Below are positions 463-35,357 of a DNA stretch of 64,000 bases, piece by piece. Position 1 is the first letter of the stretch. Every line of letters begins with the position of its first letter. A model generated the notes under the pieces. The model was not told where the DNA came from and did no database searches. It saw only the letters and a program-made list of their open reading frames with translations. Source of the DNA: Naegleria gruberi (lineage: Eukaryota); NCBI GenBank assembly GCA_000004985.1, contig GG738902.1. The stretch is one strand, 5' to 3'. A program made the position numbers and the translations under genes.

Positions 463-1039
463 GTTGAATCACGGTAATGTGTTGTTGATTTATAAAATTA
501 AAGCCTGTGATGATTCTTTTAATTTTCGCAAAATCAGAACAAAAAAGTTTTTAGATTTTTTTTTGAAATGTTTGGTGAATGAAAATTTCAACATGAAATT
601 CAAAGATTGAATATAAATTGTAATCGTCCAATGATTACAAACAGTGTATTTTACCGGTAAAAGTGAATCTAAATGCTTCAAGTTTGAACTTGTGGAAGGT
701 GGCTGGTTATTGATGTGGCTGCTGATTTGAGTCTATTTAAGGCTGTTGCTTATTGTTACAAATTTACTTAATCATATCTAATCTTCGTGAAGTGCATGTA
801 TGCGTCCACAATGGTGGAGATAAGATTATAATGTGGCTGTACGAAATTAATCAGCACTAAATTTTTCAAGCGAAATTAACTAAGTGTTTGGTCCCTTAGA
901 AGATAGGTCCGGCAAGAATGAGATATTTTGCGGAAACAATGATACACCAGCAAAATAGTGCCTTGTTAATTTCCTACAGATGCAAAATATATCTATCGAT
1001 TTAATTATTTGCTTCTATTGTGTCTTTCAAGTTATGCAT

Positions 1040-29759: not shown

Positions 29760-31193
29760 TTATTGGAAACCTACAAATGCAAAAATCAATAATAAAACCA
29801 AGTAGGTGAAAGTAAATAATGAATTGCTAGACGATTCTCTAATGCTCTTTCCAGGTTGAATATTCTTGGATTGTTGTGGAATCAAAATACTATTCGAAAC
29901 TTTAGGAGTAATTGGTGAGCTTTCTTTTGGAACTATTTCAATAATTGACATTGTGTCACTAGCAAGGAAAGTTACATTACTTGAAAAACTCAAACTTTCA
30001 TTACTCATGTTTCCATCCAAATCGAATGTATATTTCGAAACTCGAGAAATTTCCATGGAAACATTAAGGTTGACTGAAACTGGAGAGAAACTCATGATTC
30101 CATTATTGTATGAGAAAACTTCTTGCCAAATCAATAGATACTTATTTCCATTACTCTTTTGAAGCCACAATTTTTGTAAGTTTGCATTTTTAGTTTCGTT
30201 TGTTCTCAATTCGAAACTCAATTCTTTCAACCCAAAAATAGCAAGTTTAGGATTTTCACTCAATACTTGAATCATTCCCTTCAGTGCTCTATAAACTGGT
30301 TTTGGAGATGGAGAATCAATATTATCAGTCGAATTATATCTCAACAATCCAAAGAACTCGCCATCATCACACATTTCGTATAGATAAGTCTTTGAGATTC
30401 CTCTCATGTATTGCAACACCAAAGATCTCAAAGTATATCTCGCTTGGATAATCTCAGGAACCCAATAAATTACATGAGCAGGCAATGTTTGCCATCCAGT
30501 TTCAGTTGTAATAATAGGTTTCGAATAACCACCCTGCAAGAGTGTTAAATTCTTGAAATAATCAATGGTTCCAGTGAATCCATATTGAGTCTGAGGTCCC
30601 CATCCCTTCACAGGATTATAAGTTCCATAATAATTATGCATATTCACATAGTCAACCCATTTACTGACATCACCCAAAGCTTCGTAAGCAGAAAGTGAGG
30701 TTAACGAAGGAGCGTAAACTGGAAAACTCGAGTTGTGATTTTCCCAAAGGAATTGAGTCCAGTTTCGTGTGATTTCAACCCAATTAGAGAGTCCTTTCAA
30801 ATCATATTCGTTGACTCCTTCGTAAGCTTCGAAAATGTCTGGAACTTTCTGTGGATAGTTTCGAATTAAATCTGCTGGTCTAGAAGGGTTATCTGTTAGG
30901 AAAACACCTTTGATTCCGTTTCGTCCGAGGTAGTTGTGTCTGTCGTAGTAATATTGTGGACCATCACGTAACGAATCTCTGATATGTCTAATGCCAGACT
31001 CTATTAGAAACTTGGCGAAAGTTTCCCAGTGATTATTGTAACAACTATTTGGATACGACAAGTGTGTATTAACTCCGATTGTGTCCACGAAAGCGTCAGC
31101 ACTTTGTGGAATGGCAATACTTGCTTTCGTTCTTGAACTAGTTTCGAACAGCAGAATCGCGAGAAGTAACAACCAAGCGTTTAGTTTCACCAT
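29760..31193 (-). CDS. Secreted glycoside hydrolase (GH5-like clan A fold), possibly GPI-anchored or carrying a C-terminal TM.
   Basis: From the second ATG (A8 context) there is a signal peptide MVKLNAWLLLLAILLFETSSRTKA. Conserved ...NEYD... and ...IITTETGW... blocks match the acid/base and nucleophile motifs of clan GH-A. The C-terminal tail FTFTYLVLLLIFAFVGFQ is hydrophobic. Confidence 0.55.
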   Translation of the reverse strand: MVKLNAWLLLLAILLFETSSRTKASIAIPQSADAFVDTIGVNTHLSYPNSCYNNHWETFAKFLIESGIRHIRDSLRDGPQYYYDRHNYLGRNGIKGVFLTDNPSRPADLIRNYPQKVPDIFEAYEGVNEYDLKGLSNWVEITRNWTQFLWENHNSSFPVYAPSLTSLSAYEALGDVSKWVDYVNMHNYYGTYNPVKGWGPQTQYGFTGTIDYFKNLTLLQGGYSKPIITTETGWQTLPAHVIYWVPEIIQARYTLRSLVLQYMRGISKTYLYEMCDDGEFFGLLRYNSTDNIDSPSPKPVYRALKGMIQVLSENPKLAIFGLKELSFELRTNETKNANLQKLWLQKSNGNKYLLIWQEVFSYNNGIMSFSPVSVNLNVSMEISRVSKYTFDLDGNMSNESLSFSSNVTFLASDTMSIIEIVPKESSPITPKVSNSILIPQQSKNIQPGKSIRESSSNSLFTFTYLVLLLIFAFVGFQ

Positions 31194-31485
31194 TTTTTTT
31201 AACTGGAACCACAAGATCTCATCAAAAATCAACATTCAAACTCTTGAATTTTCCAACATTGCATTGTAAAAAGTTAACTTGACTTTCAAAGATTCGGCAA
31301 AGAACAACAAGGAACAACAAAGTTGGATTGAAACAAATTGATGATACACAGAAATCCATTAGAATGGATTTTTTCTCTTTTTAAGATTGATATTAACTCT
31401 AATAACACACCCTTTGGAACTTTGGCGTAACATTCCAGGAACAATGAATTCAATTCTTATTACAATTTTTCATTTTAAAAAAAAA

Positions 31486-32768
31486 ATGCTCAACACATCT
31501 GCTGCTACCGGAATCAACCAATCTAATAATAGCATCAATAATAACCTAAAAGACGAGAAGAATGATGATGAAATAACTAGTGAAGTGTGTCCTCTTTCAT
31601 TCTATGAAGAATCTGGTTTTTATCACAATCATTTAGAATATACAAACAAGTATTTGTATGATCCGAATCAATTTGTTGATCAATTTCATAAGAGTATAAA
31701 GGAGAAGAATTTTAACAAGTTGAGAAGTTTGAGAATTTTAATTCAACAGCAAACAATTGATATTTGTAGAAGTAGAGTGTATAATTATAGACCTATTGAT
31801 GGAGAATTTTCATTGGATAAGAAGAAGAGGATAGAATTGAGTGAGAAGATTCTCGTGAATGCCTCTGTAAAGAGTAAATATTATAAGAATGAAGGATTGG
31901 AGGTGAGTGAGAAGGTTGGAGATTTGGAAAAAACTCAAGTTTTGGTTATTAATGGTGATTGTATTGATATTGCATTCCATATTCAAGATTTGTTGATTAA
32001 GGAAGGTAAATTTGGAAAGGAAAGAGTTGCTGTATTGAATATGGCTAATCCAAATACACCTGGAGGTGGATACAAGGGAGGATGTGGGTAAGTTTCTTTC
32101 AATATTATTTAATCCAAAAATTCATATTGAAACTATATTACAGAGCTCAAGAAGAAAATTTACACAGAAGATCAAACTTGTATCAATGCTTGGACAATTA
32201 TGTAGACAAGATTGACAAGACTAGAACATGGAATTATCCAATAGGATATGAAAGTGGAGTCTATAGTCCAGATGTTACATTCTTCAGAGGATGTGAAGCT
32301 AAGGGTTATCCACTCCTTTCTGCTCCAAGATTAGTCGATGTCATTACCACTGCTGCAGTTCCAAACTCTCTCAATCATGGTGATGGAGAAATTGATGAGA
32401 GAAATATTGGCAGTATTGAGGCCATTTTAAAGATTGCAGTTCAACACGGAGTTAGAAATGTGGTCTTGTCGGCTCTTGGTTGTGGAGCTTTCAGAAACTC
32501 TCCAACAGCAATTGCTAAAGTTTTCAAGGAAAAGATTGAAGGTCCACAATTCAAAGGCCACTTTGATAGACTCTACTTTGCAATCATTGAAGATCACAAC
32601 TCAAAGAAGGGACATAATCCTGATGGAAATATCAAACCCTTTGTCCAAGTTTTCAATGATTATTTGAAGGATAGAACCGATGTAACAGAACTCACTGACT
32701 CACAATTCAATTATGATTATGATAATATGAATGATGTATATCAGCAATACTATGAAGAAAGTAGGTGA
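31486..32768 (+). CDS. Bacterial-type poly(ADP-ribose) glycohydrolase (DUF2263 / macro-fold PARG) in two exons: 31486..32087 and 32144..32768.
   Basis: Splicing GTAAGT...ATTACAG joins ...NTPGGGYKGGCG to AQEENLHRRSNLY. This creates the PARG catalytic signature GGG-X7-QEE. Downstream, ...VVLSALGCGAFRN... fits a macro-domain fold. The ATG context is AAAAAAAAATG. Confidence 0.7.
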
Positions 32769-33086
32769 GAGTATTATCAAATTGTATAATAAATAATCAA
32801 TATTAAATCCAATAACTATTAAATAATTGTACTCTCGCTTTCCGATAGCCAAATAAATATTTAATTCACCATATGGTGAGAATGACCGATTTCTTATAAT
32901 TGTGTTGGCAGTCCTGAGCCCGAGGACACAAGCAGCAAATTAATTTTTTAAGCTTAACGAAATAGCACCTCCTCAATAAACTTAAAACTTCTCACACCGC
33001 CAAGTGCGCTCTGATTCGGACACCTCAAACACCAATGCTTAATTTCTCATTTTGCATTATGATAACAGAGAAAACAAGATAAAAAA

Positions 33087-35278: not shown

Positions 35279-35285
35279 GGTAAGT

Positions 35286-35357
35286 GGAGATGCGGGGTAT
35301 CGATCCCCGTACCTCTTCCATGCTAAAGAAGCGCTCTACCATGTGAGCTACATCCCC
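35286..35357 (-). tRNA. tRNA-Ala(AGC): tRNA-Ala, anticodon AGC.
   Basis: The reverse complement reads GGGGATGTAGCTCACATG(G)TAGAGCGCTTCTTTAGCATGGAAGAGGTACGGGGATCGATACCCCGCATCTCCA. It has the G3:U70 pair, the GGGGATGTAGCTCA 5' end typical of eukaryotic tRNA-Ala, and the anticodon loop TTAGCAT. A T9 run lies on the coding strand 7 nt past the 3' end. The 72-nt span reflects a D-loop read as ACATGTA; if it is ACATGGTA, as in the truncated copy at 44249, the gene is 73 nt and the end shifts by one base. Confidence 0.85.

What the first reader, a model, noticed from the sequence alone, without database searches (positions are those of the whole stretch)
31486..32768. Bacterial-type PARG whose catalytic GGG-X7-QEE signature is assembled only after splicing
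The PARG signature glycine-rich loop ends exon 1 and the QEE catalytic glutamates begin exon 2. The family (DUF2263) is predominantly bacterial, with patchy eukaryotic distribution. A spliceosomal intron placed exactly inside the active-site motif shows the gene is a resident, expressed nuclear gene rather than contamination. If it was acquired horizontally, it has since gained an intron. Its presence implies ADP-ribosylation signalling in this organism.
Basis: partly seen in the sequence, partly recalled or inferred. Interest (0 to 1): 0.5.

Follow-up and report, generated by a model that had tools for sequence, protein, structure and literature searches.

The report
Annotated Naegleria microbial-type PARG gene, one intron
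This is a real two-exon Naegleria gruberi gene for a bacterial-type poly(ADP-ribose) glycohydrolase whose catalytic motif is split by a 56-base intron, but the gene is already annotated and the family already published for this organism, so it is ordinary.

Summary
Exon 1 is 31486..32087, the GTAAGT...TTACAG intron is 32088..32143, and exon 2 is 32144..32768. Together they give a 408-aa protein carrying GGGYKGGCGAQEE.

The product scores as microbial-type PARG (PF10021 1.8e-26; TIGR02452 1.5e-43). It aligns without gaps across the splice junction to the Deinococcus and Thermomonospora PARG crystal-structure sequences. Its predicted fold matches those structures best.

The window is Naegleria gruberi, and the spliced protein is exactly XP_002671836.1 / UniProt D2VVT0 (NAEGRDRAFT_81416). 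Perina et al. 2014 already reported up to seven bactPARG genes in N. gruberi, three of them with an intact signature. N. gruberi PARPs are also published.

A 99%-identical environmental contig supports the intron. It has four differences in the 56 intron bases, including a 1-nt indel, against three synonymous changes in 882 exon bases.

Horizontal transfer is neither shown nor excluded. The heterolobosean copies form one clade and are not nested among the sampled bacteria.

One side observation: eukaryotic homologues repeatedly carry introns inside this glycine-rich loop. This is probably because glycine codons concentrate proto-splice sites there. Transcription and enzyme activity remain untested here.

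The parts
31486..32087 (+). Exon 1 (602 nt): Met1 to the first two bases of the Gly201 codon. It encodes a disordered N-terminus, N-terminal helices, the first part of the macrodomain and GGGYKGGC(G) of the signature.
   Evidence: The start matches the deposited protein XP_002671836.1 and the MLN... start of paralogue D2V883.
32088..32143 (+). Spliceosomal intron, 56 nt, GTAAGT...TTACAG, phase 2, 20% GC. An in-frame TAA at 32089..32091, overlapping the exon-intron boundary by one base, stops the unspliced reading.
   Evidence: The near-identical environmental contig L005 has 3 substitutions and a 1-nt insertion here, against 3 synonymous changes in 882 exon nt. The protein alignment to PDB PARGs and to the intronless Willaertia genes is ungapped across the junction.
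32144..32768 (+). Exon 2 (625 nt including TGA at 32766..32768): third base of Gly201, AQEE, the rest of the macrodomain and a C-terminal extension.
32062..32156 (+). Genomic span coding the catalytic loop GGG-X7-QEE (aa 193-205), interrupted by the intron. E204 and E205 are coded at 32151..32156.
   Evidence: motif match. G193-G195, G199, G201, A202, Q203, E204 and E205 are invariant in 64 homologues. They align to the QEE of TcPARG and DrPARG.
32478..32492 (+). Diphosphate-binding loop G313-C314-G315-A316-F317, which contains the G[A,V][F,Y] patch.
   Evidence: G313, C314 and G315 are invariant and A316 nearly invariant. It aligns to GCGVF of TcPARG and DrPARG. The motif definition is from PMC7050489.
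32592..32642 (+). Loop D351-F367 (DHNSKKGHNPDGNIKPF). It stands where TcPARG and DrPARG have the 'ribose cap' (D261...R268 / D260...T267). It is five residues longer here and carries a conserved HNPxGN motif.
   Evidence: The residue equivalent to R268/T267 could not be assigned.

Best explanation
The locus is the Naegleria gruberi nuclear gene NAEGRDRAFT_81416 (XP_002671836.1, UniProt D2VVT0). It has two exons separated by one ordinary 56-nt U2-type intron. After splicing it encodes a 408-aa single-domain macrodomain hydrolase of the microbial-type PARG family (PF10021 / TIGR02452).

By homology, it should bind the terminal ADP-ribose of a poly(ADP-ribose) chain in the macrodomain cleft, holding the diphosphate with the GCGAF loop. 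One of the two signature glutamates, E204 or E205, would serve as the catalytic acid/base that cleaves the ribose-ribose O-glycosidic bond and releases ADP-ribose. In this way it would reverse the products of the organism's PARPs. Like characterised bacterial-type PARGs, it may also remove ADP-ribose from nucleic-acid ends.

It is one of three close N. gruberi paralogues with an intact signature. The position of the intron inside the motif has no functional meaning. Glycine codons make this loop rich in G|G and AG|G sites, where introns tend to sit.

Shown: gene structure, family membership by sequence and predicted fold, conservation of catalytic residues, residency in the genome, and long-term purifying selection.
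Inferred: transcription and splicing in vivo, enzymatic activity, substrate, and exo versus endo mode.
For: - Gene model. It is exactly identical to the deposited protein.
- Organism: three neighbouring ORF products are exact N. gruberi RefSeq proteins on one 305,921-bp scaffold.
- Family: PF10021 at 93.7 bits against a cut-off of 23.5. TIGR02452 at 149.3 bits against a cut-off of 50. DrPARG 4e-19 and TcPARG 6e-18, ungapped through the junction. The family profile against TcPARG gives 1.3e-46.
- Fold: AlphaFold2 pLDDT 87.9, pTM 0.89. The best PDB matches are TcPARG (target-normalised TM 0.78-0.79) and DrPARG (0.69-0.74), ahead of generic macrodomains.
- Catalytic and diphosphate-loop residues are invariant in 64 homologues.
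- Intron: canonical ends and low GC. In L005, 4 of 56 intron positions differ, including a 1-nt indel, against 3 of 882 exon positions, all synonymous third positions (Fisher p = 3.5e-4).
- Selection: pN 0.27-0.33 against pS about 0.7 versus N. lovaniensis and Willaertia.
- Literature: N. gruberi has up to seven bactPARGs, three with the full motif (PMC4245714). N. gruberi has PARP1-like and other PARPs (PMC2964712). Bacterial-type PARGs also reverse RNA/DNA ADP-ribosylation (PMC11833690).
Against: - No transcript, cDNA or protein evidence for this gene could be obtained here.
- Identity to the two biochemically characterised enzymes is only about 25%.
- The C-terminal cap loop differs in length and sequence, so the mode of action and even the preferred substrate may differ.
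- No member of this closer subfamily (heterolobosean, rotifer, Bacteroidales or Sphaerochaeta-like) was found to have been assayed.
- With three near-paralogues and seven family members in the genome, this copy could be redundant or little expressed.
Confidence: 0.85

Rival explanations
1. The enzyme's real substrate is not protein-linked poly(ADP-ribose). Instead it would act on ADP-ribosylated nucleic acid (2'-OH RNA or 5'-phosphate ends) or another ADP-ribose conjugate. It would then work in repair of, or defence against, ADP-ribosylating toxins from the bacteria Naegleria eats, rather than in PARP signalling.
For: Bacterial-type PARGs (SCO0909, DrPARG) efficiently reverse 2'-OH RNA and phosphate-end ADP-ribosylation (PMC11833690). 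The family is expanded in N. gruberi to as many as seven genes, which looks more like a conflict or defence family than a housekeeping eraser. The cap loop differs from TcPARG and DrPARG.
Against: The same catalytic machinery hydrolyses PAR in every assayed member. N. gruberi has PARPs with the HYE triad, so PAR is expected to exist. Nothing in the neighbourhood points to a toxin or defence module.
Confidence: 0.25
2. This copy is a recently duplicated paralogue that is silent or decaying (an unexpressed gene or incipient pseudogene). The intact reading frame would merely reflect its youth.
For: It has a sister paralogue, D2V883, at 72% identity (94% bootstrap) and a third, D2VUB9. No expression data were found. 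A related environmental homologue (L004) carries an in-frame TGA. The L005 strain has lost the stop codon through a 45-nt deletion.
Against: 28% amino-acid divergence from its closest paralogue, with no stop or frameshift in 1,227 nt of a 34%-GC genome, requires long purifying selection. All 25 family-invariant residues are kept. The three exon polymorphisms against L005 are all synonymous, and the only indel lies in the intron. pN is far below pS.
Confidence: 0.07
3. The gene is a recent bacterial acquisition by Naegleria that gained its intron afterwards.
For: The family is abundant in bacteria (573 confirmed bacterial loci; best about 37% identity over residues 57-372). The Willaertia homologues and the L004 homologue have no intron, so the intron was probably gained within Naegleria.
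Against: The seven heterolobosean sequences form one clade (100% bootstrap) with at least two paralogue lineages shared by Naegleria and Willaertia. Any transfer therefore predates that split. The clade is not nested in the 40 closest bacterial sequences, and eukaryote-labelled sequences group together, though weakly (48%). The best non-heterolobosean hits are eukaryotic or unlabelled at 40-42%. Perina et al. find bactPARGs in five of six eukaryotic supergroups.
Confidence: 0.1

Closest known systems
Naegleria gruberi bactPARG family as catalogued by Perina et al. 2014 (PMC4245714); UniProt D2VVT0 / XP_002671836.1
   Same: It is this gene. The spliced product is identical residue for residue to the deposited protein. 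D2VVT0, D2V883 and D2VUB9 all carry GGG-X7-QEE, matching the paper's count of three intact copies out of as many as seven.
   Different: Nothing differs. The paper does not list accession numbers in the text held here, so the one-to-one assignment of the 'three' is my inference.
Thermomonospora curvata PARG (PDB 3SIG/3SIH/3SII, E115A mutant 3SIJ), the founding bacterial-type PARG
   Same: Single macrodomain, GGG-X-QEE catalytic loop, GCG[AV]F diphosphate loop, and the best structural match to the predicted model (target-normalised TM 0.78-0.79). The family profile matches it at E = 1.3e-46.
   Different: About 25% identity. The Naegleria protein has roughly 80 extra N-terminal and 40 extra C-terminal residues. 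The cap loop after the conserved Asp is five residues longer, with an HNPxGN motif, and the Arg268 equivalent cannot be assigned. The gene is eukaryotic and spliced.
Deinococcus radiodurans PARG (PDB 5ZDA-5ZDG)
   Same: Best single-sequence PDB match (4e-19), ungapped across the splice junction. The catalytic glutamates and diphosphate loop are the same.
   Different: 22-25% identity. DrPARG has Thr267 in the cap and shows endo- as well as exo-activity. The corresponding residue here is unknown.
Canonical eukaryotic PARG (human PARG, Tetrahymena PARG)
   Same: Same catalytic signature GGG-X6-8-QEE and same chemistry on a macrodomain core (PMC7050489).
   Different: Canonical PARGs have an additional alpha-helical accessory domain and a tyrosine clasp. 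The protein here matched only the microbial-type Pfam family at E <= 0.1.

Membership tests
Microbial (bacterial)-type PARG, Pfam PF10021 (formerly DUF2263) / NCBIfam TIGR02452 | Profile match above the curated cut-offs | tested here: met
   PF10021 at 93.7 bits against 23.5. TIGR02452 at 149.3 bits against 50, covering residues 105-354 on model positions 12-257 of 266.
Microbial (bacterial)-type PARG | Catalytic loop signature GGG-X6-8-QEE with both glutamates | tested here: met
   GGGYKGGCGAQEE at residues 193-205 of the spliced product. It aligns to the QEE of TcPARG and DrPARG. The residues are invariant in 64 homologues.
Microbial (bacterial)-type PARG | Diphosphate-binding loop with the G[A,V][F,Y] hydrophobic patch (PMC7050489) | tested here: met
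   G313-C314-G315-A316-F317 aligns to GCGVF in both crystal-structure sequences.
Microbial (bacterial)-type PARG | Macrodomain fold without the accessory domain of canonical PARGs | tested here: met
   On a predicted model only: AlphaFold2 pLDDT 87.9. The top Foldseek hits are TcPARG and DrPARG, followed by generic macrodomains. At E <= 0.1 the only Pfam family matched was PF10021.
Microbial (bacterial)-type PARG | C-terminal 'ribose cap' (Asp261/Arg268 in TcPARG) that restricts the enzyme to exo-glycohydrolase action | tested here: inconclusive
   The Asp is conserved (D351), but the loop is five residues longer and the Arg/Thr position cannot be aligned with confidence.
Microbial (bacterial)-type PARG | Hydrolysis of poly(ADP-ribose), abolished by mutating the catalytic glutamate | not testable with these tools
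   This needs recombinant protein. No assay of this protein or of a close relative was found in the literature searched.
Spliceosomal (U2-type, GT-AG) intron | GT...AG ends, removal restores a conserved reading frame, and the sequence is free to vary and to take indels | tested here: met
   GTAAGT...TTACAG. The alignment across the junction is ungapped. A near-identical strain has a 1-nt insertion plus 3 substitutions in the 56 nt, against synonymous-only changes in the exons.
Spliceosomal (U2-type, GT-AG) intron | Observed removal from mRNA | not testable with these tools
   No cDNA or RNA-seq data for N. gruberi were accessible.

The most novel reading that the evidence does not exclude
Introns cluster inside the 13-codon catalytic loop of eukaryotic microbial-type PARG genes. 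Two position-and-phase identities span supergroups: N. lovaniensis with the rotifer Adineta vaga, and Anaeramoeba with the fungus Glomus. Near-misses of 1 nt and 7 nt involve this N. gruberi gene. The most novel reading is that these are remnants of one or two very old introns that later slid or were lost. That would make the 'bacterial-type' PARG an ancestral eukaryotic gene rather than a patchwork of transfers. It would also provide a rare documented case of intron sliding.
Probability: 0.15. Interest if true: 0.4.

Novelty: already known. Interest (0 to 1): 0.15.

Why it matters
It matters little beyond confirming the annotation. The gene model, its family assignment and the presence of both PARPs and bacterial-type PARGs in N. 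gruberi are already in public databases and in the literature.

Two modest points could be useful. First, nobody appears to have assayed a member of this eukaryote/Bacteroidales-like subfamily, whose cap loop differs from the two crystallised enzymes. Its substrate (PAR or ADP-ribosylated nucleic acids) and its exo or endo mode are therefore open. Second, the repeated placement of introns in the glycine-rich catalytic loop is a neat small example of how codon composition may steer intron positions.

Tried and rejected
1. I first thought the window came from an unsequenced Naegleria species, or held an unannotated third paralogue, because the homology search listed no self hit (best 72%). This was rejected. 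Exact look-ups show the window is N. gruberi and the spliced product is XP_002671836.1. Its 90% cluster is represented by a 216-aa ENA fragment.

2. I could not get the gene structures of the two closest paralogues. Whether D2V883 shares the intron is therefore unknown.

3. A JGI metagenome scan with a heterolobosean alignment gave no close relatives (best 40-46%). A tblastn screen of those 80 loci flagged no locus lacking a match across the loop. That screen does not catch interruptions such as the one in L124, which had been found separately.

4. I tested intron clustering as evidence of an ancient intron. Under a uniform null, 5 of 17 introns in the loop gives P = 2e-4. The loop, however, holds 9-23% of all G|G sites and 0-50% of all AG|G sites of these genes. 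When introns are restricted to such sites the excess disappears (P = 0.08 and 0.39). The mundane explanation therefore suffices.

5. Alternative GT..AG pairs near the junction all delete part of the motif.

6. The Perina 2014 supplement and literature searches for the locus tag and accessions returned nothing. Slade et al. 2011 is not held.

7. An Rfam and tRNA scan found nothing overlapping the locus.

Full report
**Observation.**
- An ATG at 31486 opens a frame that runs to 32087 and, if read on, stops at once at the TAA at 32089..32091 (...GGCG*).
- A 56-nt segment follows at 32088..32143. It begins GTAAGT, ends TTACAG, and is 20% G+C against about 35% for the flanking coding sequence.
- From 32144 a second frame runs to a TGA at 32766..32768.
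- Removing 32088..32143 gives a 1,227-nt CDS and a 408-aa protein with GGGYKGGCGAQEE at residues 193-205.
- The junction falls after the second base of the Gly201 codon. The glycine-rich part of the signature is in exon 1 and AQEE is in exon 2.
- Of the seven frame-preserving GT..AG pairs nearby, only this one keeps the X7 spacing.

**What the product is.** The spliced protein belongs to the microbial-type PARG family by sequence and predicted fold.
- It matches Pfam PF10021 (PARG_cat_microb, formerly DUF2263) at 93.7 bits against a cut-off of 23.5.
- It matches NCBIfam TIGR02452 at 149.3 bits against a cut-off of 50.
- Among solved structures its only significant sequence matches are the Deinococcus radiodurans PARG (5ZDA-5ZDG, 4e-19) and the Thermomonospora curvata PARG (3SIG and related entries, 6e-18). 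Both alignments run through the splice junction without a gap: NMANPNTPGGGYKGGCGAQEENLHRRSNLY against NFASAKNPGGGFLGGAQAQEEDLCRGSGLY.
- A profile of 64 homologues matches TcPARG at 1.3e-46 over nearly its whole length.
- In that alignment G193-G195, G199, G201, A202, Q203, E204, E205 and G313-C314-G315 are invariant.
- G315-A316-F317 fits the G[A,V][F,Y] patch of the diphosphate loop described by Rack et al. (PMC7050489).
- An AlphaFold2 model built on the alignment is confident (pLDDT 87.9, pTM 0.89; residues 1-24 disordered). Its best PDB matches are TcPARG (target-normalised TM 0.78-0.79) and DrPARG (0.69-0.74), ahead of generic macrodomains.

**Where it comes from, and whether it is known.**
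- Exact look-ups of three neighbouring ORF products return Naegleria gruberi RefSeq proteins on one 305,921-bp scaffold. One of them is the ERG24 sterol reductase immediately downstream.
- The spliced 408-aa protein is identical to XP_002671836.1 / EFC39092.1 / UniProt D2VVT0 (NAEGRDRAFT_81416). UniRef names it 'Microbial-type PARG catalytic domain-containing protein'.
- It did not appear as a self hit because its 90% cluster is represented by a 216-aa ENA fragment.
- Perina et al. 2014 (PMC4245714) state that bactPARGs occur in all eukaryotic supergroups except Plantae. They also state that N. gruberi has up to seven, of which only three keep the full GGG-X6-8-QEE motif.
- D2VVT0 and its paralogues D2V883 (72% identical) and D2VUB9 (56%) all carry it, which fits that count.
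- N. gruberi PARPs are also published. They include a PARP1-like Clade 1B member and two unclassified proteins with the HYE triad (PMC2964712; PMC4245714).

**Evidence that the intron is real.** No cDNA was accessible, but three lines agree.
- First, homology. The intronless Willaertia magna genes and the bacterial enzymes align without a gap across the junction.
- Second, form: canonical ends, low G+C and an immediate stop codon.
- Third, polymorphism. An ENA metagenome contig (L005, ERZ929261) is 99% identical to window 31829..32910. In 882 aligned exon bases it differs at three positions, all synonymous third positions. In the 56 intron bases it differs at four positions, including a 1-nt insertion that would shift the frame if the segment were coding (Fisher p = 3.5e-4).
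- Long-term purifying selection is also evident. pN is 0.27-0.33 against a saturated pS of about 0.7 versus N. lovaniensis and Willaertia.

**Residency and origin.**
- The gene sits among ordinary eukaryotic genes: a calpain-TPR protein, a G-alpha-domain protein, ERG24, an EGF-repeat protein and a kinase. No PARP lies nearby. The gene has the composition of the window.
- In a rough neighbour-joining tree (307 columns, 100 bootstraps) the seven heterolobosean sequences form one clade (100%). The window gene and D2V883 are sisters (94%).
- Eukaryote-labelled sequences separate from the 40 closest bacterial sequences only weakly (48%).
- Bacterial homologues reach about 37% identity (Dysgonomonadaceae, Prevotella, Sphaerochaeta and others). 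The best non-heterolobosean hits, which include rotifers, EukProt proteins and unlabelled metagenome sequences, reach 40-42%.
- Any transfer therefore predates the Naegleria-Willaertia split and is not demonstrable. A recent bacterial origin is unlikely.
- Because both Willaertia paralogues and an environmental heterolobosean-like homologue (L004) lack introns, the intron was most simply gained within Naegleria.

**Mechanism.** This part is inferred from the characterised family members.
- The macrodomain cleft would bind the terminal ADP-ribose, and the GCGAF loop would strain the diphosphate.
- One of the signature glutamates, E204 or E205, would protonate the leaving group. Water would then attack the oxocarbenium intermediate, releasing ADP-ribose (PMC7050489; PMC6445106).
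- What cannot be decided is exo versus endo action. The loop that forms the 'ribose cap' in TcPARG (Asp261...Arg268) and DrPARG (Asp260...Thr267) is five residues longer here (DHNSKKGHNPDGNIKPF). It carries a conserved HNPxGN motif.
- Bacterial-type PARGs also reverse ADP-ribosylation of RNA 2'-OH and of phosphorylated nucleic-acid ends (PMC11833690). Such a substrate is a live alternative for this expanded family in a bacterivorous amoeba.

**Side observation on intron positions.** I mapped annotated proteins onto their genomic loci.
- N. lovaniensis has an intron 7 nt upstream of the N. gruberi site, in phase 1 of the Gly199 codon.
- Adineta vaga has one at exactly that position and phase.
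- Anaeramoeba and Glomus cerebriforme share one in phase 1 of the third Gly of GGG.
- Balamuthia has one in phase 0 directly after the Gly201 equivalent, 1 nt from the N. gruberi site.
- Leaving out the window gene, 5 of 17 introns fall in this 13-codon stretch (uniform null P = 2e-4).
- In these A+T-rich genes, however, the loop holds 9-23% of all G|G sites and 0-50% of all AG|G sites. Under a null that restricts introns to such sites the excess is not significant (P = 0.08 and 0.39).
- Glycine codons creating proto-splice sites are therefore a sufficient explanation. An old intron with sliding cannot be excluded on this small sample of computational gene models.

**Verdict.** However, the gene, its family assignment and the ADP-ribosylation toolkit of N. 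gruberi are already known. The split signature is a curiosity without functional consequence. Interest is low.

Noticed in passing
window 32062..32156; L001 6001-7446; L166 501-1968; L167 501-5340; L168 501-2442; L169 501-2002: Eukaryotic microbial-type PARG genes repeatedly have an intron inside the GGG-X7-QEE coding stretch, at four different positions. N. lovaniensis and Adineta vaga share one position and phase. Anaeramoeba and Glomus share another. Balamuthia's is 1 nt from the N. gruberi site. The clustering is significant under a uniform null (P = 2e-4) but not once G|G or AG|G proto-splice sites are taken into account.
   Followed up: partly
L001 7031-7159 (N. lovaniensis intron 2); L166 (A. 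vaga intron 4): There is a second small cluster at the other conserved glycine motif, the diphosphate loop. N. lovaniensis has a 128-nt intron in phase 1 of the Gly in SAF^GCGAF. A. vaga has one 4 nt downstream, in phase 2 of the Cys codon. The N. gruberi gene has none there.
   Followed up: no
window 32767..32811 versus L005 939/940: The 99%-identical environmental N. gruberi-like contig has a 45-nt deletion that removes the last two bases of the stop codon. This extends the protein by YNY before a new stop. The extreme C-terminus and 3' end are therefore polymorphic.
   Followed up: partly
L004 7062..8222: An ENA metagenome contig carries an intronless heterolobosean-like homologue (about 54% identical). 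It has an in-frame TGA where all relatives have a Gly codon (DDRNI*SIEAIL). This could be a nonsense mutation, a sequencing error or read-through.
   Followed up: no
L124 about 700..870: A metagenome contig of unknown eukaryotic origin (37% GC) has its homologue interrupted between GAQ(E) and ENLHRR by about 183 nt. No GT-AG pair restores the motif. This may be a non-canonical intron, an insertion or a pseudogene.
   Followed up: partly
window 31486..31725 and 32650..32765 (aa 1-80 and about 370-408): The heterolobosean proteins share N- and C-terminal extensions absent from the crystallised bacterial enzymes: CPxSF[FY]E...YDPxQF, and a C-terminal DYDYxNM...Y helix. Apart from the disordered first 24 residues, these are modelled with moderate to high confidence. 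Their role is unknown.
   Followed up: no
window 29760..31235 (-): The divergently oriented neighbour is a 491-aa ORF with a hydrophobic N-terminus, many N-x-S/T sites and no Pfam match. Its exact ORF translation is not in the protein collection, so the deposited model probably differs in start or splicing.
   Followed up: no
window 35284..35357 (-): A tRNA-Ala(AGC) gene is the only Rfam or ARAGORN hit in the 64-kb window.
   Followed up: no
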